From the NCBI GenBank assembly GCA_964645705.1, contig CAZYAB010000001.1, positions 16,749 to 80,748 of the forward strand: 64,000 nt of DNA, in the 5' to 3' direction. This document shows positions 4,064-19,661 of the stretch, piece after piece; the first letter of the stretch is position 1, and each line of letters starts with the position of its first letter. Both the position numbers and the translations under genes were made by a program. The notes beneath the pieces are model-generated. The model did no database searches and was not told where the DNA came from. It saw only the letters and a list, made by a program, of their open reading frames with translations. The stretch comes from an uncultured Methanosarcinales archaeon. Lineage in GTDB: Archaea; Nanobdellota; Nanobdellia; Woesearchaeales; CAXGTL01.

Positions 4064-4549
4064 TTAACTCTTTTTTCTTACTTTAATCATATCGCCTATT
4101 GTCAATCCTTCTGAATTACCTTTTGCTTCAATTGCATGATGAATCTCTTCATGTTCTTGAATAAGATCTATTCTGAAGAATCTTTCAAGTTTTTCAGCAA
4201 GTTTGATTGATGGTTTGAATGTTCCTGACTCTATTTTATGAATCACTGATTCTTTTTCATTTATAAGTTTTGCAACTTCTTTTTGTTTTAATCCTTTTCT
4301 TTCCCTTGCATTCTTCACAATATTACTAAAATTAGGGATAATCATTTGAATTATTTCTTTTTCAGGTTTAAGTTTAACTTTAGCAACTGACTCAACGTTT
4401 TTCTTCTTTTCTTTTTTCATAACAGGCATCACTATTTCTTTTACTTTACCAAACAAACTGCACGCTTTACAAACCTTTAGGTCACTCCCTTCTAAAGAAA
4501 TAACATACATTTTTCCAACGTCTGAGCCACACATATTGCATGATGTCAT
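4064..4549 (-). CDS. mbf1: archaeal multiprotein bridging factor 1 (aMBF1): zinc ribbon + HTH XRE-type
   Basis: C-x2-C...C-x2-C zinc ribbon (CNMCGSD...CKAC) followed by a helix-turn-helix (LKQKEVAKLINEKESVIHKIESG). The ORF-track extension to 4621 has no homology and overlaps the tRNA-like element, so the start is taken at MTSCNMCG. Confidence 0.7.
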   Translation of the reverse strand: MTSCNMCGSDVGKMYVISLEGSDLKVCKACSLFGKVKEIVMPVMKKEKKKNVESVAKVKLKPEKEIIQMIIPNFSNIVKNARERKGLKQKEVAKLINEKESVIHKIESGTFKPSIKLAEKLERFFRIDLIQEHEEIHHAIEAKGNSEGLTIGDMIKVRKKS

Positions 4550-4585
4550 TATTTCACCTATCATAAATACAAATATGAATAAAAA

Positions 4586-4761
4586 TGGGGCGGCAACCGA
4601 GACTTTCAAGACATTATCCATTTGAACTCGGCCTAGGGGATATCAACCCACCCATTATAACATAAATATTTGTATAAGTGAATGATAATTTCTAGATGGT
4701 CCACAGTCCCCCGTGCTGTTACCCACCTGTTTGGCAAGTTCCAGGCTACACCATTGCCGCC
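4586..4761 (-). tRNA. candidate tRNA-His(GUG) gene interrupted by up to three introns (D-loop, canonical 37/38, T-loop), encoded CCA
   Basis: GC-rich island in AT-rich DNA. On the minus strand, G-1 (4761) and acceptor GCGGCAA (4760-4754) pair with UUGCCGC (4596-4590), C73 (4589) and CCA (4588-4586). The anticodon stem GGGGA (4711-4707) / UCCCC (4640-4636) is 5/5 bp, and the loop CUGUGG|A holds anticodon GUG (4704-4702). A 59-nt insert follows G37. T-arm CCGAG-UUCAAAU (4631-4620) is completed by CUCGG (4601-4597) after an 18-nt insert. D-stem GUGU (4751-4748) / GCAC (4716-4713) encloses 31 nt. Confidence 0.55.
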
Positions 4762-4809: not shown

Positions 4810-5331
4810 TTACTTCCTTTTCTTCATACCAAATGTATAAGGCAACAAAAATACTACTGCATACAATAAACTTATCACTGTTGGACTATGTTGAATGTTC
4901 AGATTAAATAATGCGTCTAATTTGTTTGCAACAACTGTCATCAAAAATAAGTTTATGATTGTTATTAGTGGTATAAATGCAACTGCAAGTATGTGGTGGC
5001 GTCTTTCTATATCAATATCTCTTATTATCAAGTTAAATAATAATCCAAACACCAAAGCAATTGACACAACCAACAAATACATAGGCCATTGAGACAATAT
5101 CATTAAAAACGGCACTAAGAACATTGCAACTAACAAGTTACAGGTTGTGATCACGACAAGTCCAATCCAATAAGTAACTCTGTTTGCTTGTTGTTTATAA
5201 TGTTTAAGCGGTTTCTTTTTAAGCTTAACATTAAAATCACTTTTTACTTTGAACGACTTTCCCATCTTTACTACTTTGGTCTTCTTGCTTTTTTTTTTAT
5301 TTTTCCTCTTTTTTTTTTTATTTTTTTTCAT
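4810..5331 (-). CDS. hypothetical small polytopic membrane protein with poly-Lys N-terminus
   Basis: About 4 TM helices after a K-rich N-terminus. The start may be the internal MGKSF. Confidence 0.4.
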   Translation of the reverse strand: MKKNKKKKRKNKKKSKKTKVVKMGKSFKVKSDFNVKLKKKPLKHYKQQANRVTYWIGLVVITTCNLLVAMFLVPFLMILSQWPMYLLVVSIALVFGLLFNLIIRDIDIERRHHILAVAFIPLITIINLFLMTVVANKLDALFNLNIQHSPTVISLLYAVVFLLPYTFGMKKRK

Positions 5332-5800
5332 TTTTCATCATTTCAAAAGTTATCTGCATATATCTTTTTATTTTCTGGGTATAAATTTCTTGCATATTAT
5401 CAATATCTAGAAGAACTCCTTCTTCTTCTCCATCTTTATTTTTAACTTTTGTAACTAAACCCACATGTCTTTTACCTTCATTAATTTTTTCATACTTCGC
5501 TCTTAAAACTCTTCTTAACCAAAGATAAAAATTACCCATCTCAACAATTTCTTCATTATCAGAAAATGTTTTAATAAGTAATTCTGCCTTAATTGCATTA
5601 TTTTTTGGAATTTCATCTTCAATTAATTTATTTTCTTTAGCATATTTTAATTGTGCATTTATCAAAAAATCTATACAATCAATCATTCTTTTAACAATAT
5701 TTCTTATTACTTCTACAATTCTTGTATATTTTAAAGAAACAAAGATAAGATGGTCTATTCTTTTTAATTCTTCATTCGCATCTGAAAACGATTCAATCAT
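5318..5800 (-). CDS. hypothetical protein (tandem paralog of 5813..6301)
   Basis: 160 aa, soluble, helical. It shares colinear motifs with its neighbour: DHLIF/DHILF, LRRVLRAKY/LFRRKCLLHY, and a basic patch followed by VxxVKxKD. Confidence 0.4.
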   Translation of the reverse strand: MIESFSDANEELKRIDHLIFVSLKYTRIVEVIRNIVKRMIDCIDFLINAQLKYAKENKLIEDEIPKNNAIKAELLIKTFSDNEEIVEMGNFYLWLRRVLRAKYEKINEGKRHVGLVTKVKNKDGEEEGVLLDIDNMQEIYTQKIKRYMQITFEMMKNEKK

Positions 5801-5812
5801 TTTATTATTTCC

Positions 5813-6301
5813 TCATATTTTTATGGTTTGTTTCTCTTTTATTATTATATTTTCTATTCTACCATAAAAAGCTTTTGTTTTTTTTAAGTAATTTTTAACA
5901 TCATCAGCCGTTATTGACCTCATCTTATAATCATTCGAACATATTATGAATTTATCCTTTTTCACGAATTCAACAGGACTTTTCCTGTGTTTTATTATTA
6001 TGTCTTTAACATCTAAAATAAAATTAATATAATTCGCATCAAAATTATAATGAAGCAAACATTTTCTTCTGAATAAGTCTAATTTCGACTCAAAATTATC
6101 TTTAAACTCAGGAACCCTGTTATTCTTTTTTTCATAATACAATAATGCAGCCATAGTATTTGTAATTGCTAAGAACACATTATCCATTATTTTTAATAAT
6201 AATTTAGGATCATTTACTAATGGAAATGTTTTAAATAAAATATGATCTGCTGATTTAATATATCTTCTTGCTTCCTCTTTATATTGCAGATGTTTTTCCA
6301 T
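5813..6301 (-). CDS. hypothetical protein (tandem paralog of 5318..5800)
   Basis: 162 aa. Weak colinear similarity to the downstream ORF. No known domain recognised. Confidence 0.4.
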   Translation of the reverse strand: MEKHLQYKEEARRYIKSADHILFKTFPLVNDPKLLLKIMDNVFLAITNTMAALLYYEKKNNRVPEFKDNFESKLDLFRRKCLLHYNFDANYINFILDVKDIIIKHRKSPVEFVKKDKFIICSNDYKMRSITADDVKNYLKKTKAFYGRIENIIIKEKQTIKI

Positions 6302-6319: not shown

Positions 6320-6664
6320 TTAATTCTTAAGATTCATAATAGCTTTTGCAAGGTCGCCTTCTGCTTCTCTAATTGCATTCATTGCTTCTTCTTCACTACA
6401 ACCACATTGTTCAACAACAACCTTAATATCGTCTTTACTAATTTCTGGTTCAGTATCAATAGATCTTTCTTCAAAACTTCCTGCAACCTGAAAAGTTTCT
6501 TGCCCCATAGCATTGACCTTGCTTACACTAGGGTTTTGAAAAACCAATTCTTTATCTTCTAATCTAATGATAACTTCTTTTGCATCAATTTCTTCTTGCT
6601 TCATACCCATTTTTTTCATAGCTTGCTTCATCATCTTTGGGTTAATATTCATTCCTGGAAACAT
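6320..6664 (-). CDS. nac: nascent polypeptide-associated complex protein (archaeal NAC alpha; NAC domain + C-terminal UBA)
   Basis: MKQAMKKMGMKQEEID...EVIIRLEDKELVF (NAC domain) followed by DIKVVVEQCGCSEEEAMNAIREAEGDLAKAIMNL (UBA-like). The length (~114 aa) fits. Confidence 0.8.
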   Translation of the reverse strand: MFPGMNINPKMMKQAMKKMGMKQEEIDAKEVIIRLEDKELVFQNPSVSKVNAMGQETFQVAGSFEERSIDTEPEISKDDIKVVVEQCGCSEEEAMNAIREAEGDLAKAIMNLKN

Positions 6665-6934: not shown

Positions 6935-6949
6935 GTGGAGGGGAAATAT

Positions 6950-9103
6950 ATGGCAAAAAAAAAACAAGGATTAGTACGAAGAATAGCTAGTGCAACAGCT
7001 CATAAAGTTGTTTCTTTAGCAAATGAATATGATAGTAGTGCACCAGCTCAAGAAGAAAAACCAAAGGAACCAGAAGAAGAATATGTTTTAAAACCTGAAG
7101 ATGTTTATTTCAAGATTGGCGATTCAGTTTATGGAACAACAGCTGCAACAAGAGATGTAAAGATAGGTTATGGAATGTGTATCAAAGGATTAGTTTATAC
7201 TGACGAGAGTATTGAACATATTAATGAATTAGAAGGTTCTCAAATTCTTAATGATCTAAAATCAAGTGTTATGTATAATTTTGTAGAAAATATTCTAAGA
7301 CATAAATTTTCAGGAGATAAATTAGATCCAACAGGAAGAGTACGTGCATTTCAATTACTAACTTATGGTACAAAAGTGGAAACTCCTTGTAAAGACTCAA
7401 AATTAGTTGATTTTTACAAAAATCAATTAAAGAAGAAAAAAGATACAGGACTTGTAATCATAGACGAAAGAACTGTTTATATGGATTTACTTAGAAAAAC
7501 TTACAGAGACGGATATGTAGAATTAGCTAGAGATAGATTAACAGAGATGTTAAAGGATACAGATTTATTAGATAATGAAGCATCTGTTGACGAAGCAGTT
7601 GCAATGGTCTATTCAGGACTTGATGACTCTCAAAAACAAAAATTAGCTAAAGGATTTAAAGAATCAGGAAAAGGACAAATAACTGAAATTACGCACGCTA
7701 TTGCAAGATTATTTTACATAGATCCTACAAAAGAATCAAAACCAACAAAAGAAATTGAAAGTAGAATAAAATCTAATCTTGTTAATGAAATGATAAGATC
7801 TTCAGTACAACCAACATTTAATGTAAAAGACAGATTACTGGCTCTTGCAAGTCTTTTCAAACAAGAAGAAGATAAAGCAGAGATTGATGCAAAAACATTG
7901 AAGAGATTTACTTCTGAAAAAGAATATCATATATTCGGTAATGAGGAACACTTTGATGCACCAACTTTAGAAGAAATGAGTAATGAAATTAATACTCACG
8001 TAAATCTAAAGATGATGCCTGTTGCAAGACAGATTGCATTACAGCAACAAGAACTCAAACAAAAATTGTTGTCTTATAGTGGAAAATCTGATGAACAATT
8101 GGGTGATCAAGAAAGAAAAGAAAAGCAAAGACTTGATGACGAAGCAAAGAAACTTAATGAACAACTTGAATTTGAAAAGGAAGCATATATTAAAACTCAT
8201 TTGGCTAGACTACAAACATTCATCAATGCAGAAGAAACAGTTGAAGTTAAAGATAAAGTAGAAAAAGGAAGAGCAGAATCAGCAATGGGTTTTAAAGATA
8301 CAAAAAGTAAGCTTAGAAGATACTCAGGACGTGCTGGTTTAGTAACTACATTGATATTATTGGGAGCAAGTGCTTGGTATTCTAAAACAGGCTTAGAATT
8401 AAATGAAACAAAATATATGAAAGGTCTTGGTCGTGCATCACCAACAGAAATCGCGTGGGCAATGTTTAGTGATCCTGAATTACCAGATACAATCAACCAA
8501 TACCTGTTACTTCAAGTTTCAGGCGCAACAGAAGCAATTGCAAGTAAAGTAGATGGTGTTACAACCACAATTGGAGACAAGGTTGACGGCGCAACAATAA
8601 CAATCGGTGAAAAGGTTGAAGGTGTAACAACTACAATTGGCGAGAAAGTAGAGGGTGTTACAACAACAATCGGTGAAAAGGTTGAAGGCGTTACAACCAC
8701 AATTGGAGACAAGGTTGATGGAGTTACAACAACAATCGGTGAAAAAGTTGATGGTGTCACAACTACAATTGGAAGTAAAGTTGATACAGCTGTTTCAGGC
8801 GTAGCAACATCAATTGGTGAAAAAGTAGATGGCGCTGTTTCAGGCGTAGCAACAACAATTGGAGATAAAGTTGATGAATATGCTGGAAGTGTTGAATCAA
8901 TCCAAGATAACATAGAAGCTGAAATACAAGCACAAATGAAAACAGTTGTTGACAGAATATCTGCTCTTGAATCAAAAGCACAATTAACACCTGCTGAAAA
9001 GAGTGAACTAGAAATGCTAAAACAGAATGTTGGTGGTCTTGTAAACACTGTAAACTATCTTAGAGACAAATTAAGACAAGTGAGAAAAGCCAACAGCAGA
9101 TAA
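6950..9103 (+). CDS. membrane-anchored coiled-coil protein with 11-residue tandem repeats (hypothetical)
   Basis: ATG at 6950 is preceded by GGAGGGG. A ~460-aa N-terminal soluble part is followed by one TM (GLVTTLILLGASAWY), then ~10 tandem 11-aa repeats (TIGEKVEGVTT) and a C-terminal coiled coil. No signal peptide. Confidence 0.6.
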   Translation: MAKKKQGLVRRIASATAHKVVSLANEYDSSAPAQEEKPKEPEEEYVLKPEDVYFKIGDSVYGTTAATRDVKIGYGMCIKGLVYTDESIEHINELEGSQILNDLKSSVMYNFVENILRHKFSGDKLDPTGRVRAFQLLTYGTKVETPCKDSKLVDFYKNQLKKKKDTGLVIIDERTVYMDLLRKTYRDGYVELARDRLTEMLKDTDLLDNEASVDEAVAMVYSGLDDSQKQKLAKGFKESGKGQITEITHAIARLFYIDPTKESKPTKEIESRIKSNLVNEMIRSSVQPTFNVKDRLLALASLFKQEEDKAEIDAKTLKRFTSEKEYHIFGNEEHFDAPTLEEMSNEINTHVNLKMMPVARQIALQQQELKQKLLSYSGKSDEQLGDQERKEKQRLDDEAKKLNEQLEFEKEAYIKTHLARLQTFINAEETVEVKDKVEKGRAESAMGFKDTKSKLRRYSGRAGLVTTLILLGASAWYSKTGLELNETKYMKGLGRASPTEIAWAMFSDPELPDTINQYLLLQVSGATEAIASKVDGVTTTIGDKVDGATITIGEKVEGVTTTIGEKVEGVTTTIGEKVEGVTTTIGDKVDGVTTTIGEKVDGVTTTIGSKVDTAVSGVATSIGEKVDGAVSGVATTIGDKVDEYAGSVESIQDNIEAEIQAQMKTVVDRISALESKAQLTPAEKSELEMLKQNVGGLVNTVNYLRDKLRQVRKANSR
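8553..8880 (+). repeat. 33-nt tandem repeat array (about 10 units) inside CDS
   Basis: Near-identical 33-nt units (acaac[at]acaattgg[ac]ga[ag]aa[ag]gt[at]ga[ag]gg[tc]gt…) encode the TIG[ED]KV[ED]GVTT repeats. Confidence 0.85.
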
Positions 9104-9172
9104 AATATTTTTTATTTTTCACTTTTTTATCTTTTTAATTTAAAAAAATGAGATCACCAAAAAACAAAAAAA

Positions 9173-11515
9173 ATGGAACAACAACAAGAACCAAAATTAG
9201 GTAAATATTTGGTTAGTTTTTTAGGTGATTACAAAATAGGGAAAAGTCTTCTTATGGTTTTACTTCTTTCAAAACTAGCACTCAAATCAAAACATCAAAT
9301 AGCAAACATATGTGATGAACATTCTTATTTGGAAAGCTATTATTATAAAGGAAGAAAAAAAATAAAAGAGGGCGCTTTTAAGTTCATTGGATGCGAGATA
9401 GATACTTCTCCTAGTTTTGCAAGATTATTTGGTAATTTCTATGAAAGGGGTAAAACATCAGAAGTAAATATTGAAGGAGCAAAGATTTACATAAATAAAG
9501 GATTAGAACAAGTATTAGACGAAATTGAAAACGGCGTTGTAATTACTAGTTTCAGTGGCGGAACTGCTTATGCAAATTATTTGAAAAAACCAGTCAATAC
9601 TATCAACTATGTTTTTTTAGATAGGGACGGTAAATCAGATGATGCACTTTTAGAATTATTAAATTTTCATTATGATGGTTTTTTGAATAAGATCTCAGAC
9701 ATCAATTCTTACGAACAAGAAGATAAAAAGAGTTTTATAAAGACAACACAAAGACTGATTCATCAAAAGTATGATGACACTTCTAATATAGGTTTTACCC
9801 AAACATTCAATGAAAGATCAAAAACATTGATTCAAGCATTTTTTATTTCAGAGATAAAGAATCATATGAAAATAAATAATAATCATGAACCTTTATCACA
9901 CATTATCAGAGATTATTTAGTAAATATTGATTCTAAAAATCTGAGTGAGAGTTCTGTTTTAACTCTGGACCAACTTCTTTTAAGAAAAGGATATGTGTCT
10001 GATGAATTCTTACATAGAACTTTGTCATCAATAAAAGAAATAAGAAAAAAAATAAAATGTAATGATTCTGTTGTTATAAAAGCGTTATTTGAAATGTCAA
10101 TGTCTCATTCATTATTAGAACAACATTTCGAAAACATATACTCTCATGATTTTAATAGAGTTATAGCAAGAAATACAGTTAGGTGTAATGAAAAATTTCA
10201 AAGATATAATGTGGATAATAGAACTAGAGTAAGTAGTAATGCACACAATCTTGCATTTTTCCTATTAGAAAAATTTCTTCCAAACAGAATTTCAGATATA
10301 TTTGAAATCATGAAACAAAAACATTATCATGATCATATAAAAAAGAATAATTATAATTTTTTAGTAGATGTATCAGAAGCAAATCAGGATTTAAGATATA
10401 TTTTTTCAAACACAATTCCTTTTTTATTAATAAGAGGATATTCAAAGAAAAACATAAGAGATATTGCTATGAAACTAAACATTGGTTTTGCAGATAATGA
10501 AAATAATGGATTTATAGATAAAGTAGGCATCATTAAAAAAAGATTATTTGAGGACCATGATTTTAGAAATCAATTGATTAGAGATTATGAATCACTTAGC
10601 GAAATTATAATGTCACAAATAAAACCATTTGGTGAAAATCAGTCTGCATTAGACCCTAAGTATAAGAAAATAGCCATTGATCATAATTCTTATAGCCTGA
10701 TCCAAACATTAGAATCGCCTGAACTAGAAGGTGAATTAGTATCAAACATCATGCACTTAAGATCTGTATTTGATCCCCACATATTCTTTTTTGGCGGAAA
10801 ATTAGATTTGTCTAAAGGTTCAAAAATCATGGCAAGAGATCTTCTGATTAGTCAATATTCAGAGATAGTGGATAAATTTGATTGGAAACCTAATTACATA
10901 GGAGAATTTGAATTCAATGAGGAATTAGAACTATTAACAGATGGACAAATTCCTATTTTTGAATGGTCGCCTGAGGAAAAAGACAATTTAGTTAAGAAAA
11001 TAGAAAATTACATGAAAACAATAAAGCAACAAGGTCATGAAAACCAAAAACAAGCAAATTATTCAGAAGAACAAAAGAAAACAAAATTAGTTTCTTTTCT
11101 AAAATCTTTTACAAAAAGAAACAAAGAAAAATTAAAACAACTTTCTCCTAGACAAAGGGAAGAAATTCGTATGAGGGCAATTAATCATTATAAAAATAAA
11201 TTAAAATCTATGTGTGATGAATATAAAAAGATTTTTATAGAACTAAATGACCAATTTGAAGAGTTATCTTTTATTCCTAATGTTGAGAATATTTTAGAAA
11301 TATTGTGTGGCACAATATATGAAATACACAATAGAAAAAATAAAATACAAAACCCTGAACAATTTGATTTTGAAACTTTTATTAAAGATCATTTAATAAA
11401 ATACAAAGAATTAGAAATGAGAATAAAACAACACTCTTATTCAAGATCACAAGAACAAAGAACAAAAGGAGTGTTAGGATATTTTAGAAAGACTGCTTCA
11501 CAACAAGCTCCATAA
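9173..11515 (+). CDS. large cytoplasmic hypothetical protein with N-terminal P-loop (Walker A) motif
   Basis: 780 aa, no TM. GDYKIGKS (G-x4-GKS) lies at residues ~18-25, and VFLDRDG could be a Walker B / G3 DxxG. The rest is helical with no known domain. Confidence 0.5.
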   Translation: MEQQQEPKLGKYLVSFLGDYKIGKSLLMVLLLSKLALKSKHQIANICDEHSYLESYYYKGRKKIKEGAFKFIGCEIDTSPSFARLFGNFYERGKTSEVNIEGAKIYINKGLEQVLDEIENGVVITSFSGGTAYANYLKKPVNTINYVFLDRDGKSDDALLELLNFHYDGFLNKISDINSYEQEDKKSFIKTTQRLIHQKYDDTSNIGFTQTFNERSKTLIQAFFISEIKNHMKINNNHEPLSHIIRDYLVNIDSKNLSESSVLTLDQLLLRKGYVSDEFLHRTLSSIKEIRKKIKCNDSVVIKALFEMSMSHSLLEQHFENIYSHDFNRVIARNTVRCNEKFQRYNVDNRTRVSSNAHNLAFFLLEKFLPNRISDIFEIMKQKHYHDHIKKNNYNFLVDVSEANQDLRYIFSNTIPFLLIRGYSKKNIRDIAMKLNIGFADNENNGFIDKVGIIKKRLFEDHDFRNQLIRDYESLSEIIMSQIKPFGENQSALDPKYKKIAIDHNSYSLIQTLESPELEGELVSNIMHLRSVFDPHIFFFGGKLDLSKGSKIMARDLLISQYSEIVDKFDWKPNYIGEFEFNEELELLTDGQIPIFEWSPEEKDNLVKKIENYMKTIKQQGHENQKQANYSEEQKKTKLVSFLKSFTKRNKEKLKQLSPRQREEIRMRAINHYKNKLKSMCDEYKKIFIELNDQFEELSFIPNVENILEILCGTIYEIHNRKNKIQNPEQFDFETFIKDHLIKYKELEMRIKQHSYSRSQEQRTKGVLGYFRKTASQQAP

Positions 11516-11529
11516 TAAGGTGAAAACAA

Positions 11530-12453
11530 ATGCATAAAACAAAAAACACAGATCAAAACAGCAATCAAAATAATAATCAAAACAGCAATCAAAATAATAA
11601 CCAAAATAATAACCAAAACCCTAATCAAAACAATTATTTTCATAAAATGTTGTTGTTAGCAGCAGGTATTGTTGCCGCAGGTTACATGTTTTTATGTCCT
11701 GTAAAATCATCAGCAGAAACAACTGAATCAAAAAAAACAATTGATGATGTTGTCAGAAGATTCACTGTAAAACAATCCCAAAAACAACAACCAAAAAAAC
11801 CAAATTATATTATTTTACGTGAACAAAGATATATTGAACTTTGCAATCTTATTTACCAAAGTTGGGATAAGATTTCAGAAAGAATAAATAGATTAGATAG
11901 AGAAAATAAAACAGATAAAAGAAATGATTCCGCAGCAGTTGATGAGTTGTCACAAGCAGAAGAGTATATTTCATTTGTTTCTAAAGAATCTGAACCAAAT
12001 TTTGATGATTTTAATCAAAGGGAATTAGTAAGAAGATTATTATTATTAGAAAAGGTTTACAATGCAAGACCCAAGGAAAAGAATTATTTTAGAGACAATT
12101 TTAGATTAGGTTATGGTGTTAAATGGAGAGAGGACCAAAATAGATGCATGATTACTTGGGGAAATGATGAATACAAATTCAAGTGGTCTGACAGAGACGG
12201 CAGTTATTTTATGAAGTGGGACACAGATGGCAACCCTATTTTTAGATTTTATAAAAAACAAAAAATTCATAGAAAACCAAAAACAGGATCATCATCTTCA
12301 TCTCAACAATCACAACAACAAGATCCTCAAAATCAAACACAAACACCTGAACAAGAGCCACAGCCAGAACAAGATCAAGAATTTCCTTCAGAAAATGGAT
12401 CAGGAGAAGGAAGTTCTGATGATTACACTGATTATTCGAATTTTGGTTTTTAA
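11530..12453 (+). CDS. secreted or membrane-anchored hypothetical protein with N/Q-rich N-terminus and acidic C-terminal motif
   Basis: AGGTGA lies 6 nt upstream of ATG. The N-terminus has (NQN) repeats, then a hydrophobic segment MLLLAAGIVAAGYMFLCPV. It ends …DQEFPSENGSGEGSSDDYTDYSNFGF. Confidence 0.5.
   Translation: MHKTKNTDQNSNQNNNQNSNQNNNQNNNQNPNQNNYFHKMLLLAAGIVAAGYMFLCPVKSSAETTESKKTIDDVVRRFTVKQSQKQQPKKPNYIILREQRYIELCNLIYQSWDKISERINRLDRENKTDKRNDSAAVDELSQAEEYISFVSKESEPNFDDFNQRELVRRLLLLEKVYNARPKEKNYFRDNFRLGYGVKWREDQNRCMITWGNDEYKFKWSDRDGSYFMKWDTDGNPIFRFYKKQKIHRKPKTGSSSSSQQSQQQDPQNQTQTPEQEPQPEQDQEFPSENGSGEGSSDDYTDYSNFGF
11563..11640 (+). repeat. short tandem nucleotide repeat (aatcaaaa[ct]a[gat]caat…) encoding NQN low-complexity
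   Basis: Repeats of caaaacagcaatcaaaataataa/ccaaaataataac are directly visible. Confidence 0.6.
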
Positions 12454-12671
12454 TCATTGAACCGAAAATATCACAAAAACAACAAAAAATTTAATGACCA
12501 CTATATAATACTAACATTGCGAAAGATTTATATATAATAATAGATTTACACAGTAAAAGTTTACCATAGTATAATAAAAGAGGTTCTAAAAGAGGTTTCA
12601 CAAATTTAATGTTATTAGGGGTGTTTAGATTTAGGTGATAGTGTAGATAGTATCATGTGGAGGGATATAAT

Positions 12672-13778
12672 ATGGAAAATAAAAAAACTTTTAGAACAAT
12701 AGGTGCTCTGGTTTTATCAGGAACAATGCTTTTTAATTCTGCTTTTGGATATGTGTCAAGAGCATTAGGTGTAGAACCATCTGGTGAAACTACAAGAACA
12801 GAACAAACAACTGAATATAGATTAAAAGGAAATGATAATATTGAATCATTTGTTAAAAATACTATAATGATTGAAGAATATAAGGAAACAAAGGATTTAA
12901 GTGGAATTTCTGTTGATTCATACATGGGCGCAATTCTTAATCAAGGTTTACTACCTTATCTTGAAGAAGGAGATGTTTCAGAAATGTATCTTGATGAGAA
13001 CTTAGATGCAACTGGTAATGGCAGATTAATTTTTGTTTCAGAAAGTGGAGCTCCAATATCTCCTATGCCAGTTAGTCCTGTATATTTCCCTGCTATTAGG
13101 CAAGGAATAATAGAATATGCAAAAAAAGCATTAGCACAAAATCAGAAACTAGATCCAGATGAAGCTATTAAAGATCCTAAATTTGTTGCAAAAGTGGAAC
13201 AAGATCTATTAGATTCAGTAGAAGAAACTAGAACAAATGAATCTGTGAAAACAAGACAAGCATTACTTAAAGAATACAATGAAGCTCTTGCTAGAGCAGA
13301 ACCAGTTATGTATAAAGGCGGAACAGCAGAAGAACCTGGAAAAGGTTCAACAAAACACAGAATCCTTAAATTAGATGGGGAAGGAAAACTGTATACAGAT
13401 AAAGCAAAAACACAATTAAATACAGATTATAGACAAGATGTAATTTCATTAGAAGATCTAGCAGATGCTGAAAAATTGATTGCAACAAAACCCAATCCAA
13501 ATAACATGAGTGATGAAGTACTTCAAGAAAACATCATTTTATTGAATGGTTCTCATGATGCAAGTGATACTGTTAATAAAATTTCTGCAGGTGCAATTGG
13601 AGGAGTACTAGGCGGTCTTTACTTCTTAACAAGAGACGGCGGATCAACACCAGGAACACCTGTAGAACAAGTTGATGAACCTCAAGGAGAAGATGATCAA
13701 GAATTCCCTGACAATACAGGAGAAGGAATTTCAGATGACGAAGACAGAACAACACTTGAAGAAGAAATTGGTTTTTAA
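12672..13778 (+). CDS. secreted hypothetical protein sharing a C-terminal motif with the upstream gene
   Basis: ATG 12672 is preceded by GGAGGG. Signal peptide MENKKTFRTIGALVLSGTMLFNSAFG. It ends …DDQEFPDNTGEGISDDEDRTTLEEEIGF. Confidence 0.55.
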   Translation: MENKKTFRTIGALVLSGTMLFNSAFGYVSRALGVEPSGETTRTEQTTEYRLKGNDNIESFVKNTIMIEEYKETKDLSGISVDSYMGAILNQGLLPYLEEGDVSEMYLDENLDATGNGRLIFVSESGAPISPMPVSPVYFPAIRQGIIEYAKKALAQNQKLDPDEAIKDPKFVAKVEQDLLDSVEETRTNESVKTRQALLKEYNEALARAEPVMYKGGTAEEPGKGSTKHRILKLDGEGKLYTDKAKTQLNTDYRQDVISLEDLADAEKLIATKPNPNNMSDEVLQENIILLNGSHDASDTVNKISAGAIGGVLGGLYFLTRDGGSTPGTPVEQVDEPQGEDDQEFPDNTGEGISDDEDRTTLEEEIGF

Positions 13779-13899
13779 TTTTTTTATTTTTTCATATTAA
13801 TAATACTATTATTATAATATAAGAAAAGAAAAAAAGAGGGAAAAAGAGGAAAAGCAAATCAAAATAAAAAATAAAACAAAATTCAGAGGTTATAAAAAA

Positions 13900-16800
13900 A
13901 TGAAAACAAAAAATATTTTATTTTTCATGTTCATAATGATCATGTTAGCATTAACTGCTTCTGGAGTCTTTGCAGCAGAATCAAGATTCACTGTTAAGAC
14001 AGCAGCAGTTGATAGAGATACAAGAGATTATATTAACCCTTGTAATATTAATCTTGGTGGTGTTGAAAAGATAGGTACACCTAATGCTAATTATGAAATC
14101 AATTCCAATACAGTTTATGCTGTTACACATTCAGCAGACGGTTATGAAACAGACACAGATTATATATTTCTTGATGAAAATTTAGATTCATGTGAAGGAG
14201 AAAACACAGGCGATATGTGTTATTTAACATCTTATAGTTCTTCTGATTCAGAATTCAATACTGTTTGCGAATTCAGTGCAGAATATCAAAGCTGGCTATG
14301 CGATGTAACAAATAATGGTAGAACAGAATCATACATCTATGCACAAGAACAAGGAGCTGTTGCATATGTTATCAATACATTATCACCAGTTGACCAAGAA
14401 AATCAACCACCTGTTGTTGATGTTGAAGCAACACCTTTAGAAGGAGAAGCACCTCTAGAAGTAACATTTACAATCGATGTAACAGATGATGAATCAATCA
14501 GCAGAGTAATGGTATTTTTTGGTGACGATACATCAACACTTGCACAAGAACAAAGCATTGTTATACACACTTATGAAAAACCAGGTATATATGAAGCACA
14601 AATAGTTGCTCATGATAATCAAGGTCTTCCAACAGAAGAAATAGTTGAAATAACTGTTTCAGAACAACCAGGAGCAGACACTTTCTTAGTAAAAACAGCT
14701 GCTGTTGATAGAGAAACAGACGAATACATAAATCCTTGTAATATTAATCTTGGAGGTGTTGAAAAAATAGGAACACCAAATGCTAATTATGAAGTAAATT
14801 CAAACACAGTTTACACTGTTACACACTCAGCTTCTGGTTATGAAACAGACACTGATTCTATTTATTTAGATTCTCATTTGATCTTATGTGAAGGAGAAAA
14901 TACAGGTGATGTATGTGAATTATCAAGTTATAGTTCTTCTGATATTAAGTTTGACACTGTTTGTGAATATAGTGCAGAAAGCCAAGGATGGTTATGTGAT
15001 GTAACAGATACAAGTAAGGACAAAACACAGTCATATATTTATGATCCATTCCAAGAAGGCAATGTTGTTTATGTCATAAATACATTAGCACCAGTTGATC
15101 CTGAAAATCAACCACCTGTGGTTAATGCTCAAGTACTTCCTTTAGAAGGAGATGCACCATTAAATGTTGGATTTACAATCGATGTAACAGACGACGAATC
15201 AATTAACCAAGTAATTGTATTTTTCGGAGATGGTTCATCTCAAGAAACAGATCCACAAGACTTTATAATACACACTTATACTCAACCAGGAACATATACA
15301 GCAGAAATAGTTGCTCATGACAATCAAGGTTTACCAACAATAGTTGAATATGAAATAACTGTAAATAGGGTTCAAGCATATCCTATTATTGTCAAAGCAG
15401 AAGCAAATCCGGCTATTGGAACAGCACCATTAGAAGTTACATTTTCAAATGAAGTAACAGATGATGGTTTTTTCAAAAAAGTAGAATGGGATCTTGGTGA
15501 TGGAACAAAAGTTATTGTTGATGCTGTTGCTGAATTCACTTATACTTATGAAAATGATGGAGATTATGTTGCGACTTTAACTGCAACTGATAATGAAGAT
15601 TTAACTGTTCAATCTGATGGAATATTTATTGAAGTTTTAGAATGGAATCCTCAAGCAAATGTTTATCCTTCTGTAACAATCCATTCACCACAACAAGGAG
15701 ATGTTGTGATTGGTGATCTTGATGTTAATGTGCAAATGTTAGATCCAGACGGAACAATTGATGAATATGCAATTGAATTATTAGATGAAAACGATGATTT
15801 TGTTAATTTATTATCTCATGGTCATCCTTATGAACAAGGTGTAATTTATTTTAATTCATTTGATTCAACAATTTTTGCAGATGGAAATTATAAAATAAAA
15901 GTTCATGCATGGGATAATGAAGGTGCACATACATCTGTTACATCAGGGTTGTTTGAGATAGACAATATAGCACCAAGTGAAAACACACCACCAGTACCTA
16001 AAATCTATGAACCTGATGAAGGTGAAGTATTTTCAGGAGATGAATCAATTGTTTTTGAAGTTTATGATGAACAAGGTGGAGACATAGAAATAGCATTAGT
16101 ATTAGAATATGAACCATCAGGTGAAAAAGATACATTATTACAAACAGTTGTAGAACTAGATCCTTATGAAGTTTTTGAATTTGATGAAGTATTCCAAACA
16201 GAATATTATCCAGATGGAATGTATACATTAAGATTATTTGCAACTGATGAAGATTATGAAAGAGAAGATCATGTTTTGTTTGAAATAGACAATTTCGAAG
16301 CAGAAGTTCATGTTGAATTCATACAACCACAAGATGGAGATGTAATCGATGGCATCTATGAAATACAATGGGATGCTTATGAGTATGAAGGAGCAGAACC
16401 AGTTGATGATGAACCTGCAAAAGAAGAAGATGAAGAAATAGATGAAGACGAAGTAGAAGAATTCTTAGAAGAATTAGCAGATGAATTAGAAGATGAATTA
16501 GATGATGAGTTTGGATTATTATTAACAGATGATTTCATAGAAGAAGTTGCAGAATATGTAGTAAATATTATGGAAGAAGTATTATATGATATAGATGATA
16601 TTGATGATCTAGAAGAAGTCTTAGAAGAATTTGCAGAAGAATTCTATGATGATCTAGAAGATGAGTTAGGAGATTTATTACCAGAAGAAACAATAGAAGA
16701 CATGACTAATTTAGTTATGGATGTGATTATTGATACACTTGATGATTATGAAGATATGTTTGATTATTTAGGAACATTTAATTCACCATCAACATATGCA

Positions 16801-17727
16801 ACTTCATCAGGAAGTGGATCAGGAGGATCATCTGGTGGAGGCGGATCAGGTGGTTCAACAATTGATAATTTAAAGATTAGCATATTTTATGTTAACATAG
16901 ACAAAGGACAATGGGGAATGCTTGCTACTGAACTTGATAACACAGGATCATATATCTTTGATACAAATGATTTAATAGATGGTCGTTATATTTTTGAGAT
17001 CTATGCAGAAAGCCCAGAAACTCTTGAGTGGGATTATGATTCAGTTGGTTTAATATATATAGATAATTATGAAAATGAACCAATTGCACATGCTGGTTAT
17101 GATACAGCAGCAGTTGTAGGCGAAACAGTTATTTTAGATGGTTCAAGATCATATGATGTTGACCCATATGATGATCTTAATTTTTATTGGCAACAAATAA
17201 CAGGACCAGTTCCATCTGCAATTATGAACCAATATAGTAGGTTTGCATCATTTGTACCAGCAGCACCAGGAACTTATTTGTTTAATTTATGTGTTGATGA
17301 TGGATATTATGGAGATTGTGATGAAGTTATAATAACAGTAACAGGCGAACCAATGCCTCAAGCATTAAAAATAATGAAACCACAAGAAGAAGAAAAAGAA
17401 CCATTAGTAAGAGACATATTTGTTAGCAGTGTAGAAGCAGATGACAACAAGGTTTATTATGAACCTGGTGAAAGAATGCATCTTAGTGTTTCATTTGCAA
17501 ATGAATTAGAAGAAGACATTGAACAAGCAACTGTTCAAATAATTGCACCAAAACTAAGATTATTAAGAGAATTTGGTCCATTTGAACTAGAAGAAGAAGA
17601 GATGGTTACTAAAGAAGTAGTATTCACAATACCCGAAGATGCAAAACCAGGAACTTATGAAGTAAGGGTAATAATCACAACACCAGAAGATCAAAGAGTA
17701 AAAATAAGAAAGATCAAGATATTATAA
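13900..17727 (+). CDS. large secreted cell-surface protein with PKD-like domains, internal ~230-aa duplication, acidic and Gly/Ser linkers
   Basis: Signal peptide MKTKNILFFMFIMIMLALTASGVFA. Two PKD-like signatures (APLEVTF…DDxxI…HTY, WDLGDGT) and a third Ig-like module near the C-terminus. Also a D/E-rich stretch and an SSGSGSGGSSGGGGSGGS linker. Confidence 0.7.
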   Translation: MKTKNILFFMFIMIMLALTASGVFAAESRFTVKTAAVDRDTRDYINPCNINLGGVEKIGTPNANYEINSNTVYAVTHSADGYETDTDYIFLDENLDSCEGENTGDMCYLTSYSSSDSEFNTVCEFSAEYQSWLCDVTNNGRTESYIYAQEQGAVAYVINTLSPVDQENQPPVVDVEATPLEGEAPLEVTFTIDVTDDESISRVMVFFGDDTSTLAQEQSIVIHTYEKPGIYEAQIVAHDNQGLPTEEIVEITVSEQPGADTFLVKTAAVDRETDEYINPCNINLGGVEKIGTPNANYEVNSNTVYTVTHSASGYETDTDSIYLDSHLILCEGENTGDVCELSSYSSSDIKFDTVCEYSAESQGWLCDVTDTSKDKTQSYIYDPFQEGNVVYVINTLAPVDPENQPPVVNAQVLPLEGDAPLNVGFTIDVTDDESINQVIVFFGDGSSQETDPQDFIIHTYTQPGTYTAEIVAHDNQGLPTIVEYEITVNRVQAYPIIVKAEANPAIGTAPLEVTFSNEVTDDGFFKKVEWDLGDGTKVIVDAVAEFTYTYENDGDYVATLTATDNEDLTVQSDGIFIEVLEWNPQANVYPSVTIHSPQQGDVVIGDLDVNVQMLDPDGTIDEYAIELLDENDDFVNLLSHGHPYEQGVIYFNSFDSTIFADGNYKIKVHAWDNEGAHTSVTSGLFEIDNIAPSENTPPVPKIYEPDEGEVFSGDESIVFEVYDEQGGDIEIALVLEYEPSGEKDTLLQTVVELDPYEVFEFDEVFQTEYYPDGMYTLRLFATDEDYEREDHVLFEIDNFEAEVHVEFIQPQDGDVIDGIYEIQWDAYEYEGAEPVDDEPAKEEDEEIDEDEVEEFLEELADELEDELDDEFGLLLTDDFIEEVAEYVVNIMEEVLYDIDDIDDLEEVLEEFAEEFYDDLEDELGDLLPEETIEDMTNLVMDVIIDTLDDYEDMFDYLGTFNSPSTYATSSGSGSGGSSGGGGSGGSTIDNLKISIFYVNIDKGQWGMLATELDNTGSYIFDTNDLIDGRYIFEIYAESPETLEWDYDSVGLIYIDNYENEPIAHAGYDTAAVVGETVILDGSRSYDVDPYDDLNFYWQQITGPVPSAIMNQYSRFASFVPAAPGTYLFNLCVDDGYYGDCDEVIITVTGEPMPQALKIMKPQEEEKEPLVRDIFVSSVEADDNKVYYEPGERMHLSVSFANELEEDIEQATVQIIAPKLRLLREFGPFELEEEEMVTKEVVFTIPEDAKPGTYEVRVIITTPEDQRVKIRKIKIL
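13978..15364 (+). repeat. intragenic tandem duplication (two ~690-nt copies)
   Basis: Protein segments FTVKTAAVDRDTRDYINPCNINLGGVEKIGTPNANYE… and FLVKTAAVDRETDEYINPCNINLGGVEKIGTPNANYE… are ~70% identical over ~230 aa. Confidence 0.7.
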
Positions 17728-18050
17728 TAATGTCATGATCTTATTTTTTTATTATTTTTACGATAAGATTATCCTAACATTTAAAAAATAATGCTCATTA
17801 TTCATGGAAAACATTAAAAAAAGAGGCAAAATGTGACAAAAATGTCGCACGTGTGTCGTATATAGCCAGGGAGTGATTTATTGACCCTTATAGATAGTAA
17901 AATTTATATATCAATTGTGACTCCCAAATGGTTATTAAAAGTAGTCACTCCAAAATAGAAAACTTTAAATATTGGAACAGATTACTTTGATCATATATGG
18001 CTCGTAAGAGAACCTAAAAATCTTAAAACAATGTAGGAGGGATATTAAAA

Positions 18051-19553
18051 ATGGTTATGAAAAAATTTTTAGGATTAACACTATTAGTTGTACTGATGTT
18101 TAGTGCTTTTGTATCAGCATCTGCATTAGACGAACTAAGATGGGAACAAGAGTATATGCATGAGAGAGGAAGAAAGGTTTTAGTTGTTGACAGAATCGAA
18201 GTAGAAGGCACAGATGTTCTAGAATTTCATCCTGAAAACAGACCTGTTATCGACCTTAATAGAGGAGAAGAATTAGAAGTTGAAGTAACTCTAATGAATA
18301 AGATGACAGATGTTGAAGATGAAGAAGTTTGGGACCCTATCGAAGGATGGGAAACTCAATATGTAGACATCGATGTTGAAGACGCAACAATGTATGTTTC
18401 TTTTTGGTATGAAGATGCAGAAGAAGAAGGTACAATGGATAGAGTAGAAGTTGATCTTGATGCTGGAGCATCAGATTCATATACTGCTAAACTAAAGCTA
18501 CCAAAAGATATGCCACAAGAAGAAGCACAACTATACATAGAAGTAAGAGACAAGTCAGGACAAGTATGGTTAATGTCACACGTATTTGATCCAATGTATG
18601 AAGAACCTGATGATGATTGGTATGAATATGGTGAATGGGTTTATCTGAATGACTTCTTTGATGGTGGAATTCCTCTAACAATAAGAGCTCAAAGTGAACA
18701 CTTAATAGACATTAAGGATATCATGCTACACCCAGAATCTAGAGTTACAGCTGGTGATTTATTAACAGCTCAAGTAAGGCTAGAAAATATTGGTGAAGTG
18801 GATATTGAAGAAGATGATGTTAAGGTTACAGCAAGAGTGCTAGGATTAGACGATGCAATGGATTCAACATATCTATTAAAAGAATTAGAATATGAAGATG
18901 AAGCATCAACAGAACCACTTAGCTTTTACATACCGCTTTGTGCAAAACCAGGAGAATATACTTTAGAAGTTACTGTTGAATATGATGATGGCGACGAAAA
19001 GCAAACTGCAGAAAGAAAAATAACTGTTGTTGGGTCTGGTTCAGACATGTGTGCTGAAAAAGCTCAATCAGGAGAAACATCAGTTAACATAATTAGTGGA
19101 ATGCAAGTTTTAAGTGAAAGTCAAAAAATGGCAACATTCCCAGTTGTAATAACAAACAATGCAGACACATCAAAAGCATTTGTTGTTAGTGCTGACGCAC
19201 TAGGCGATTGGGCATCTGAAGTAAAAGTTCAAGAAACTTCAGTAGTTATTGACGCAGGAAAACAAAAAACAGTTTTAGTACTTGCAACTGCTAAAGATGA
19301 CGCACAAGCTGGTAAACAATTAGTTTCAATAAAAGTTAAAGACTCAGAAGGAAACACAGTTCAAGAAGAAGCAGCTGAACTAAGCATTGCTGGTTCAACA
19401 GGCGGATTTGGAAAGATGTCCTTTAGAAGAGTTTTAGAAGTTGGACTGATTGTATTAGTAATATTGTTAGTGCTTTTAGGCTTAATCATAGGTTTTAACA
19501 AATTAAAAGAAGATGAAGAAGACCTAGAAGAAGAAGACAAAAGCTATTACTAA
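18051..19553 (+). CDS. secreted acidic protein with C-terminal TM anchor (hypothetical)
   Basis: TAGGAGGG SD. Signal peptide MVMKKFLGLTLLVVLMFSAFVSASA. A C-terminal hydrophobic helix VGLIVLVILLVLLGLIIGF is followed by an acidic tail. Confidence 0.55.
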   Translation: MVMKKFLGLTLLVVLMFSAFVSASALDELRWEQEYMHERGRKVLVVDRIEVEGTDVLEFHPENRPVIDLNRGEELEVEVTLMNKMTDVEDEEVWDPIEGWETQYVDIDVEDATMYVSFWYEDAEEEGTMDRVEVDLDAGASDSYTAKLKLPKDMPQEEAQLYIEVRDKSGQVWLMSHVFDPMYEEPDDDWYEYGEWVYLNDFFDGGIPLTIRAQSEHLIDIKDIMLHPESRVTAGDLLTAQVRLENIGEVDIEEDDVKVTARVLGLDDAMDSTYLLKELEYEDEASTEPLSFYIPLCAKPGEYTLEVTVEYDDGDEKQTAERKITVVGSGSDMCAEKAQSGETSVNIISGMQVLSESQKMATFPVVITNNADTSKAFVVSADALGDWASEVKVQETSVVIDAGKQKTVLVLATAKDDAQAGKQLVSIKVKDSEGNTVQEEAAELSIAGSTGGFGKMSFRRVLEVGLIVLVILLVLLGLIIGFNKLKEDEEDLEEEDKSYY

Positions 19554-19661
19554 ACCTTTTTTAATTTAATTTTTTTTCTTTATTTTTTTAACAACAAACA
19601 TAGCAAAAATTAATCAATGAATAAAAAGGGGGATAACAAAAAATAGAAGGTATTGTAAAAA

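What the first reader, a model, noticed from the sequence alone, without database searches (positions are those of the whole stretch)
9173..11515. Orphan 780-aa cytoplasmic protein with an N-terminal Walker A (GDYKIGKS) embedded in the surface-protein block
It is the only predicted cytoplasmic, non-membrane protein in the block, and it carries a P-loop at residues ~18-25 and a possible DxxG (FLDRDG) ~125 aa later. Nothing else is recognisable. It could be the NTPase that powers assembly or secretion of the neighbouring proteins, or a divergent GTPase. This is the kind of gene a novel system would hinge on.
Basis: partly seen in the sequence, partly recalled or inferred. Interest (0 to 1): 0.55.

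Follow-up and report, generated by a model that had tools for sequence, protein, structure and literature searches.

The report
Lineage-restricted putative P-loop protein, class unresolved
A real, fast-evolving 780-aa cytoplasmic protein found in only three marine Woesearchaeota lineages keeps a canonical nucleotide-binding P-loop at its N-terminus, but it fits no known NTPase family and nothing shows that it powers its surface-protein neighbours.

Summary
The ORF (9173-11515, +, 780 aa) and its Walker A (GDYKIGKS, aa 18-25) are real. An exhaustive search of 1.84 billion cluster representatives found only two other homologue clusters (809 and 823 aa, 25-30% identical), both from marine Woesearchaeota metagenomes and both at the same syntenic position. 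GDxxxGKS is invariant and ties for the most conserved 8-residue window. A column-shuffle control shows that the flanking strand and helix also look P-loop-like, not just the motif. No member has NKxD or a conserved hhhhDE. Pfam, NCBIfam, PHROGs, PADLOC and PDB sequences give nothing above threshold. Both AlphaFold runs failed (pLDDT 33-40). Calibrated profile-profile tests reject ParA/MinD membership and give only a generic P-loop-length match to KaiC/GvpD. The gene always follows a single-pass membrane protein with a repeat-rich tail, inside a segment that evolves far faster than its flanks. Best reading: founding member of a small, uncharacterised P-loop protein family, probably a nucleotide-dependent cytoplasmic partner of that membrane protein. 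A role in assembly or secretion is untested. Interest is modest.

The parts
9173..11515 (+). 780-aa ORF. Predicted cytoplasmic protein and the window's member of a three-cluster family (P0001, P0002, P0003).
   Evidence: no transmembrane segment
9203..9286 (+). aa 11-38: hydrophobic strand (KYLVSFL), then Walker A, then an amphipathic helix (LLMVLLLSKLALKS). The first 40 residues are the most conserved block of the protein (32% invariant columns against 15% overall).
9224..9247 (+). Walker A / P-loop GDYKIGKS (aa 18-25). G18, D19, G23, K24 and S25 are invariant in all three members.
9383..9433 (+). aa 71-87: conserved hhGxExD...F..LFG block (G73, E75, D77, F82, L85, F86, G87 invariant). It is an alternative Walker B / switch candidate about 50 aa after K24.
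   Evidence: invariant columns; the role is inferred
9533..9580 (+). aa 121-136: conserved strand plus GG..Y..Y (G121, G129, G130, Y133, Y136 invariant).
R151, G153 and S155 are invariant. D150 is D, D, K.
10760..10891 (+). aa 530-573: second conserved block, R..(Y/F)DP(N/H)IFF ... V..F.W.P. DPxIFF ties with the P-loop as the most conserved 8-residue window. Function unknown.
10973..11242 (+). aa 601-690: K/E-rich, indel-rich helical segment, likely coiled coil. It has 0% invariant columns in aa 641-680 and only coiled-coil-type sub-threshold Pfam hits.
11243..11452 (+). aa 691-760: conserved C-terminal helical block (F695, L698, F700, L708, C712, R721, F731, F736, D739, I742, Y744, R750 invariant).
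9104..9172 (+). Upstream intergenic region: oligo-T tracts (about 9106-9136), then TTTAAAAAAA (9139-9148) about 30 nt before the ATG. The same layout occurs upstream of both homologues. It reads as an archaeal terminator followed by a TATA box with a very short leader (inference).
11516..11529 (+). 14-nt spacer to the next gene, containing GGTGA (11519-11523) 6 nt before the ATG at 11530. This suggests co-transcription of the target with the 307-aa gene in this lineage only.
   Evidence: in L004 the gap is 408 nt
6935..9103 (+). Upstream neighbour (722 aa): about 465-aa N-terminal region, hydrophobic anchor GLVTTLILLGASAWY (aa 467-481), then a C-terminal tail of 11-aa tandem repeats (GEKVEGVTTTI). 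Positional and architectural counterpart of the 669-aa and 648-aa genes that precede the two homologues.
11530..12453 (+). Downstream neighbour (307 aa): N/Q-rich N-terminus, one hydrophobic segment (aa 40-58) and an acidic C-terminal tail ending ...EFPSENGSGEG...NFGF.

Best explanation
The gene encodes a real cytoplasmic protein. It founds a very small, fast-evolving family restricted to a few marine Woesearchaeota (DPANN) lineages. Its N-terminus carries a genuine P-loop: a strand, then GDxxxGKS, then a helix. It most likely binds a nucleotide, ATP rather than GTP because no guanine-specificity motif exists. The remaining roughly 540 residues are mostly helical. They include a second conserved block (aa 530-573), a variable charged coiled-coil spacer (aa 601-690) and a conserved C-terminal block. 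I infer that it acts as a nucleotide-dependent switch or assembly factor on the cytoplasmic side of the single-pass membrane protein encoded just upstream. That protein's large N-terminal region is predicted to be cytoplasmic and its repeat-rich tail extracellular. Shown: the gene is real; the P-loop and its context are conserved; the synteny and the pairing with a similarly built upstream protein are conserved; the protein belongs to no family model tested. Inferred: nucleotide binding, hydrolysis, and the functional link to the upstream protein.
For: The ORF is real and conserved. phmmer against 1.84 billion representatives finds P0002 (E 6e-29) and P0003 (E 9e-13) and nothing else. GDxxxGKS is invariant, it ties for the most conserved 8-residue window, and the first 40 aa form the most conserved block. 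The context test supports a true P-loop: the 3-sequence N-terminal profile scores 44.4 against a KaiC/GvpD profile over aa 7-34. One hundred column shuffles that keep only the eight motif columns score 22.0 +/- 6.3 with a maximum of 37.1. Seven of ten sub-threshold PDB hits to the aa 7-60 profile are P-loop NTPases, with the P-loop in register in the alignments shown. Four of the five sub-threshold Pfam hits on the P0002 N-domain are P-loop families. The synteny HTH / three small genes / NAC | membrane-repeat protein | target | ... PKD / FixG_C-like / Cep192-like / FAD / STT3 is shared. The gap between the upstream gene and the target is 58-69 nt in all three lineages, each with an oligo-T tract followed by a TTTAAA-type element. 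The upstream proteins share the layout of a long N-terminal region, one transmembrane segment and a repeat tail. q669 and r648 are demonstrably homologous (E 7e-33). There is no NKxD in any member.
Against: Only about 30 residues around the P-loop resemble known NTPases. No family model reaches threshold. Calibrated hhalign shows that single sequences of real NTPases produce 75-240-column matches to the same profiles, whereas the target gives 24-27 columns. The best Walker B candidate, D150, is K in P0003, and there is no conserved hhhhDE. Structure prediction failed (pLDDT 33.5 and 39.7), so the fold is unverified. Only three sequences exist, so 'invariant' has limited statistical weight. Homology of the window's upstream protein p722 to q669/r648 is not statistically supported (hhalign probability 1.3%, BLASTP E 0.88). 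The T-tract and TATA-like element suggest the target has its own promoter, so operonic coupling with the upstream gene is not shown.
Confidence: 0.45

Rival explanations
1. Pseudo-NTPase or scaffold. The P-loop is retained for nucleotide or phosphate binding, or for structural reasons, but the protein does not hydrolyse NTP. It would act as a helical, coiled-coil scaffold under the membrane.
For: The Walker B aspartate candidate D150 is replaced by K in P0003, and no conserved hhhhD[DE] or catalytic Glu is evident. About 70% of the protein is predicted helical or coiled coil, with no enzymatic signature.
Against: K24 and S25, the residues that contact the beta/gamma phosphates and Mg2+ in P-loop NTPases (established knowledge), are invariant while the protein has diverged to 25-30% identity. 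Other invariant acidic residues (E75, D77, D176) could serve as Walker B.
Confidence: 0.2
2. Conflict or defence-type NTPase (STAND/AAA-like or similar) sitting in a hypervariable locus. It would be functionally unrelated to the neighbouring surface proteins.
For: The architecture, an N-terminal P-loop followed by a long helical region, resembles STAND-type proteins. There are sub-threshold Pfam hits to NPHP3_N, nSTAND3 and RNA_helicase on P0002. The segment evolves much faster than its flanks: 25-30% identity against 56-76%.
Against: PADLOC finds no match for the target. The STAND hits cover only the P-loop (about 30 residues) and appear in one of three members. The locus is syntenic in three lineages rather than patchy. 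No homologue was found in IMG/VR or in phage records. No effector domain is recognisable.
Confidence: 0.12
3. One reading: it is the energising ATPase of a secretion or assembly machine for the neighbouring surface proteins.
For: It is the only Walker A ORF in the 64-kb window and the only protein without a hydrophobic anchor in the 6935-22613 block. It is followed after 14 nt, with a GGTGA, by a gene for a protein with an N-terminal hydrophobic segment.
Against: It resembles no known secretion or assembly ATPase family (PilT/VirB11, FtsK/HerA, SecA, ABC) in Pfam or NCBIfam. The tight coupling to the downstream gene is not conserved, since the gap is 408 nt in L004. The downstream surface proteins with recognisable domains (PKD, FixG_C-like, Cep192-like) are well conserved (42-59% identity), unlike the target, which argues against co-evolution as one machine.
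Confidence: 0.08
4. The GxxxxGKS is not a nucleotide-binding site at all, and the N-terminal region adopts a non-P-loop fold.
For: The motif occurs by chance in 2.4% of shuffles. Nothing beyond about 30 residues matches any NTPase. The AF2 models are uninformative.
Against: The motif is invariant, its flanks score as P-loop-like well above the motif-only shuffles (0 of 100 reach the real score), and it sits at the canonical N-terminal strand-loop-helix position in all three members.
Confidence: 0.15

Closest known systems
KaiC / GvpD / RecA-like ATPases (Pfam GvpD_P-loop PF07088, KaiC)
   Same: This is the best sub-threshold Pfam hit: GvpD_P-loop on the isolated P0002 N-domain, E 0.0033, 17.8 bits, residues 6-84. 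It also gives the best hhalign score, to a 16-sequence KaiC/GvpD profile over aa 7-34 ('P...hhhhSG-xxx-GK[ST]-helix'). A low-confidence greedy alignment places G73-x-E-x-D on the family's 'fG.D' motif.
   Different: The confident alignment stops after the P-loop helix. The same profile gives equally good P-loop-only matches to MinD, NifH, Ras, Adk and Ffh, while the more closely related RecA and RuvB give 75-145-column matches. There is no hhhhDS Walker B in register. Only one of three members hits Pfam, and below the gathering score. The 780-aa architecture with a helical C-terminus is unlike KaiC or GvpD.
ParA / MinD / NifH (SIMIBI class)
   Same: By eye: a Walker A immediately after an N-terminal strand ending in S-G, an hhGxExD block, an LPGG block and hhhhDxxG. 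This was a lead from memory.
   Different: It was tested and failed. hhalign against an 82-sequence ParA/Soj/MinD profile gives probability 1.9% over 24 columns. That profile recovers single MinD (100%, 241 columns), NifH (99%, 227 columns) and Ffh (95%, 144 columns). The signature lysine of the deviant Walker A (KGGxxGK[ST]) is Asp here.
Dynamin-like / GBP / atlastin large GTPases
   Same: The overall layout is similar: an N-terminal GxxxxGKS domain followed by several hundred helical residues, next to a membrane protein. A DxxG-like element is present.
   Different: No member has a G4 [NT]KxD or RD motif. The D of DxxG is not invariant. hhalign to the GBP1 LG domain gives only 25 P-loop columns at 4.4%. 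No Pfam dynamin or GBP hit was found.
STAND / AAA+ NTPases (NACHT-like NPHP3_N, nSTAND3)
   Same: An N-terminal P-loop followed by a long helical region, with sub-threshold Pfam hits on P0002.
   Different: The hits cover about 30 residues, fall below the cutoffs (16.7 against 24.8 bits; 13.1 against 27.2 bits) and occur in one member only. There is no conserved hhhhD[DE].

Membership tests
P-loop NTPase superfamily | Walker A motif GxxxxGK[ST] | tested here: met
   GDYKIGKS / GDPKTGKS / GDNTVGKS. G, D, G, K and S are invariant.
P-loop NTPase superfamily | Walker A embedded between a hydrophobic beta-strand and an alpha-helix (the sequence context of true P-loops) | tested here: met
   The hhalign score is 44.4 against 22.0 +/- 6.3 (maximum 37.1) for 100 column shuffles that keep only the motif. 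Seven of ten sub-threshold PDB hits are P-loop NTPases, in register in the alignments shown.
P-loop NTPase superfamily | Walker B: a hydrophobic strand ending in a conserved Asp (or Asp-Glu) | tested here: inconclusive
   YVFLD150 is D, D, K across members. E75, D77 and D176 are invariant and follow hydrophobic stretches, so they are alternatives. There is no conserved hhhhDE.
P-loop NTPase superfamily | Three-layer alpha/beta fold with a parallel sheet | tested here: inconclusive
   AF2 gave pLDDT 33.5 (full length, single sequence) and 39.7 (aa 1-236, 3 sequences). Foldseek on the latter model gave no hit with E <= 0.001.
P-loop NTPase superfamily | Binds and hydrolyses NTP | not testable with these tools
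   Requires biochemistry.
ParA/MinD (SIMIBI) | Deviant Walker A with signature lysine (xKGGxxGK[ST]) | tested here: not met
   The signature-lysine position is Asp19 in all three members.
ParA/MinD (SIMIBI) | Domain-wide profile similarity | tested here: not met
   hhalign gives 1.9% over 24 columns. The same profile gives 95-100% over 144-241 columns to MinD, NifH and Ffh.
KaiC/RecA/GvpD-like ATPases | Profile similarity extending beyond the P-loop (catalytic Glu after strand 2, hhhhDS Walker B) | tested here: not met
   hhalign gives 65.7-85.9%, but over only 26-27 columns. That is the same as for NTPases of other classes, whereas RecA gives 145 columns at 98%. Pfam GvpD_P-loop scores 17.8 bits against a cutoff of 24, in one of three members.
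TRAFAC GTPases (Ras-like, dynamin, GBP) | G4 guanine-specificity motif [NT]KxD | tested here: not met
   Absent from all three members.
TRAFAC GTPases (Ras-like, dynamin, GBP) | G3 DxxG | tested here: inconclusive
   DRDG / DRIG / KRSG: the G is invariant and the D is not. The motif lies 125 aa after G1, far more than in Ras-like GTPases.
AAA+/STAND NTPases | Family HMM match and an hhhhD[DE] Walker B | tested here: not met
   NPHP3_N, nSTAND3 and RNA_helicase match only below their cutoffs, over about 30 residues, on P0002 alone. There is no conserved hhhhDE.
Secretion/assembly ATPases (PilT/VirB11, FtsK/HerA, SecA, ABC) | Family HMM match | tested here: not met
   No Pfam or NCBIfam hit to these families at E <= 10 and E <= 1 respectively.
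Known anti-phage defence systems (PADLOC-DB) | HMM match to a component | tested here: not met
   No hit for the target. The weak ZorA hits on the upstream protein fall in its repeat tail only.

The most novel reading that the evidence does not exclude
The conserved pair, a bitopic membrane protein with a large cytoplasmic region and an extracellular repeat tail plus this P-loop/coiled-coil protein, could be a previously undescribed two-component transmembrane module of marine Woesearchaeota. Nucleotide turnover in the cytoplasm would remodel or signal to a rapidly evolving surface structure used for host attachment.
Probability: 0.1. Interest if true: 0.6.

Novelty: new variant of a known kind. 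Interest (0 to 1): 0.3.

Why it matters
DPANN archaea such as Woesearchaeota are thought to live attached to other cells, and most of their surface-related genes have no known function. In Nanoarchaeota, hypothetical cell-surface proteins carry the highest densities of non-synonymous SNPs (PMC6142677). This protein is the only Walker A protein in a 64-kb stretch rich in cell-surface and glycosylation genes. It is also the only detectably conserved gene inside the hypervariable part of that stretch. If it does couple nucleotide turnover to the adjacent membrane protein, it would give an experimental handle on how these cells build or regulate their contact surface. If it does not, it is one more lineage-specific hypothetical protein with a P-loop, which is common.

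Tried and rejected
1. Word-indexed homologue searches with the protein, with the full alignment A1 and with the N-terminal alignment A2 returned only the query or nothing. The exhaustive phmmer search was the only one that found relatives.

2. Scans of GTDB genomes, JGI metagenomes and IMG/VR with A1 found only the same two relatives, and none in viral contigs. tblastn against phage records found no match.

3. AlphaFold2 on the full length (single sequence) and on aa 1-236 (3-sequence alignment) gave pLDDT 33.5 and 39.7. Foldseek against the PDB with the second model gave no hit with E <= 0.001 (best 0.62), with unrelated folds at the top. I discarded it.

4. PDB sequence searches with the protein and with the A2 profile found nothing relevant.

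5. My own eye-based reading of the N-terminal domain as ParA/MinD/NifH-like was tested with an 82-sequence profile and rejected.

6. The KaiC/RecA reading is suggested by the GvpD_P-loop sub-threshold hit. I tested it with a 16-sequence profile built from plasmid KaiC/GvpD homologues. It produced only a generic P-loop-length match, as shown by calibration with nine reference NTPases.

7. Single-sequence hhalign comparisons with nine reference NTPases aligned only the P-loop in eight cases and an unrelated segment in Ffh, so they do not discriminate.

8. IMG/VR scans seeded with Soj alone, and with the two KaiC domains, found nothing usable.

9. An integrated-element explanation for the GC rise at 8-20 kb was rejected. 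The locus is syntenic in three lineages, the target's own stretch has the GC of the rest of the window (0.267), and nothing here has a phage or viral-contig relative.

10. The bacterial promoter and terminator scan is not applicable to an archaeon.
Full report
**Observation.** The ORF at 9173-11515 (+) is present exactly as described: ATG start, 780 aa. It contains one Walker A pattern, GDYKIGKS, at aa 18-25. YVFLDRDG lies at aa 146-153, and there is no [NT]KxD. A Walker A pattern arises in 2.4% of composition-preserving shuffles of this protein, so the motif alone is weak evidence. It is nevertheless the only ORF of at least 60 codons in the 64-kb window that carries one. A hydropathy scan finds no transmembrane segment in the target. 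Its neighbours from 6935 to 22613 carry signal peptides or hydrophobic anchors. Pfam, NCBIfam, PHROGs, PADLOC and PDB sequences recognise nothing in it.

**Organism and locus.** The window has 22-33% GC and no tRNA or Rfam hit. It carries archaeal markers: NAC at 6320-6664 (-), an HTH_3 protein at 4064-4621 (-), and at 24502-27783 the counterpart of a gene that hits Pfam STT3 in relative L005. The identical protein occurs on at least three metagenome contigs from different samples. The closest relative's contig belongs to a MAG titled Candidatus Woesearchaeota, from a TARA Oceans run.

**Family size.** phmmer against 1.84 billion cluster representatives found only two other clusters: P0002 (809 aa, E 6e-29) and P0003 (823 aa, E 9e-13). 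Pattern scans of GTDB genomes, JGI metagenomes and IMG/VR recovered only these two, and none in viral contigs. Phage records gave no match. The protein is therefore a near-orphan with three known lineages.

**Conservation.**
- Pairwise identity is 25-29% between the window protein and the others, and 40% between P0002 and P0003.
- 120 of 780 columns are invariant.
- G18, D19, G23, K24 and S25 are all invariant.
- GDxxxGKS ties with DPxIFF (aa 534-539) as the most conserved 8-residue window.
- The first 40 residues form the most conserved block, with 32% invariant columns.
R151, G153 and S155 are invariant but D150 is not.
- Other invariant acidic residues that follow hydrophobic stretches are E75/D77 and D176.
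- No member has NKxD or a conserved hhhhDE.

**Is the P-loop more than a motif?** I built a 16-sequence KaiC/GvpD-like profile from plasmid homologues. The three-sequence N-terminal profile aligns to it over aa 7-34 with score 44.4. One hundred column shuffles that keep only the eight motif columns score 22.0 +/- 6.3, with a maximum of 37.1. The strand before the loop and the helix after it therefore look like those of true P-loops. Two further observations agree. Seven of ten sub-threshold PDB hits to the aa 7-60 profile are P-loop NTPases, in register in the alignments shown. Four of the five sub-threshold Pfam hits on the isolated P0002 N-domain are P-loop families, namely GvpD_P-loop, NPHP3_N, RNA_helicase and nSTAND3.

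**Which class?** This could not be resolved.
- Both AlphaFold jobs failed (pLDDT 33.5 and 39.7), and Foldseek on the second model returned nothing with E <= 0.001.
- By eye, the N-terminal domain can be read as ParA/MinD/NifH-like. I tested that with an 82-sequence ParA/Soj/MinD profile from IMG/VR. The result was probability 1.9% over 24 columns. The same profile recovers single MinD, NifH and Ffh sequences at 95-100% over 144-241 columns. That reading is rejected.
- The KaiC/GvpD profile gives 66-86% probability but only 26-27 columns. The same profile gives 60-88% P-loop-only matches to MinD, NifH, Ras, Adk and Ffh, while RecA (98%, 145 columns) and RuvB (95%, 75 columns) extend much further. 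The match is therefore generic, and KaiC/RecA membership is not shown.
- A canonical GTPase is disfavoured by the missing G4 motif.

**Context.** The order HTH / three small genes / NAC on the minus strand, then membrane-repeat protein, target, small secreted protein(s), PKD protein, FixG_C-like, Cep192-like, FAD enzyme and STT3 is shared with the P0002 lineage. The short P0003 contigs preserve the upstream pair.

Flanking genes are 56-77% identical between the window and L004. The domain-bearing surface proteins downstream are 42-59% identical. The target is only about 25% identical, and its immediate neighbours (722, 307 and 373 aa) have no detectable counterparts. The target is thus the one recognisably conserved gene in a hypervariable segment. 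Rapid evolution of hypothetical surface proteins has been reported for Nanoarchaeota (PMC6142677).

The upstream proteins of the three lineages share an architecture: about 465-505 N-terminal residues, one hydrophobic segment and a repeat-rich charged tail. In the window this tail is an 11-aa repeat encoded by 33-nt tandem repeats. q669 and r648 are homologous (E 7e-33). p722 aligns colinearly with them but not significantly.

In all three lineages the 58-69-nt spacer before the target holds oligo-T tracts followed by a TTTAAA-type element about 30 nt before the ATG. From what is known of archaeal promoters, I read this as a terminator followed by a TATA box with a near-leaderless start. This is inference. 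The next gene follows after 14 nt with a GGTGA, but this coupling is not conserved, since the gap is 408 nt in L004.

**Interpretation.** The best-supported statement is that this is a genuine, lineage-restricted protein with a functional-looking P-loop. It is probably an ATP-binding protein of an undescribed family. I infer that it works on the cytoplasmic side of the upstream bitopic protein. The rivals are a non-hydrolysing scaffold, a conflict-type NTPase, a true secretion or assembly motor, and a non-nucleotide-binding motif. They are ranked in the report sections, and none is excluded.

**Verdict.** This is a new small family within a known kind (P-loop proteins), and its class is unresolved. 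Interest is modest at 0.3, because orphan P-loop proteins are common in DPANN genomes and no distinctive mechanism can yet be attached to this one.

Noticed in passing
window 8535-8876 (within ORF 6935-9103): Tandem repeats of 33 nt (also scored as 66, 99 and 45 nt) encode about 11 copies of an 11-aa unit, GEKVEGVTTTI, in the C-terminal tail of the 722-aa membrane protein. They produce weak apolipoprotein, tape-measure and ZorA-tail hits. The antisense ORF at 8512-9048 is an artefact of these repeats.
   Followed up: partly
window 12370-12453 and 13690-13778; L004 13520-13633: The 307-aa and 373-aa proteins, and the 264-aa protein at the equivalent place in L004, are otherwise dissimilar. They share an acidic, glycine-rich C-terminal tail with an (E/G)FPxxxG.G motif that ends in an aromatic residue (...NFGF, ...EIGF, ...DANF). 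The 373-aa and 264-aa proteins also share S(T/S)PGTP. This could be a sorting or interaction signal.
   Followed up: partly
window 6935-13778 versus L004 6311-13633: The segment between NAC and the PKD protein is hypervariable. Its flanks are 56-77% identical between lineages, the target is about 25% identical, and its immediate neighbours are undetectable. L004 and L008 also carry an extra 487/414-aa gene that is absent from the window.
   Followed up: yes
window 4810-6301 (- strand): Three small genes (173, 160 and 162 aa) lie between the HTH_3 gene and NAC. They are 64-77% identical to their L004 counterparts but have no Pfam family on record.
   Followed up: no
window 11543-11634: 12-nt (also scored as 36-nt) tandem repeats encode an N/Q-rich low-complexity N-terminus (NQNNNQN...) in the 307-aa protein.
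   Followed up: no
window 13900-17727: The 1275-aa PKD-domain surface protein has an internal duplication: L004's 565-aa counterpart matches both roughly aa 4-253 and aa 258-488. It also has a long D/E-rich acidic insert, around aa 815-935 by eye.
   Followed up: no
window 8001-20000: GC is 0.31-0.33 in most 2-kb windows here, against about 0.25 in the rest of the window. The exception is 10001-12000, which covers most of the target and has GC 0.267. The rise coincides with the G/V/T/D/E-rich surface proteins, and the locus is syntenic in relatives. It therefore reflects composition rather than a foreign island.
   Followed up: partly
L004 12431-12838: A 408-nt gap downstream of the P0002 gene has no ORF in any forward frame. 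I did not check it for RNA structure.
   Followed up: no
window 1-64000: Only one ORF in 64 kb carries a Walker A motif. The part of the window examined (1-30 kb) is dominated by glycosyltransferases, an STT3-type gene and surface or membrane proteins.
   Followed up: partly
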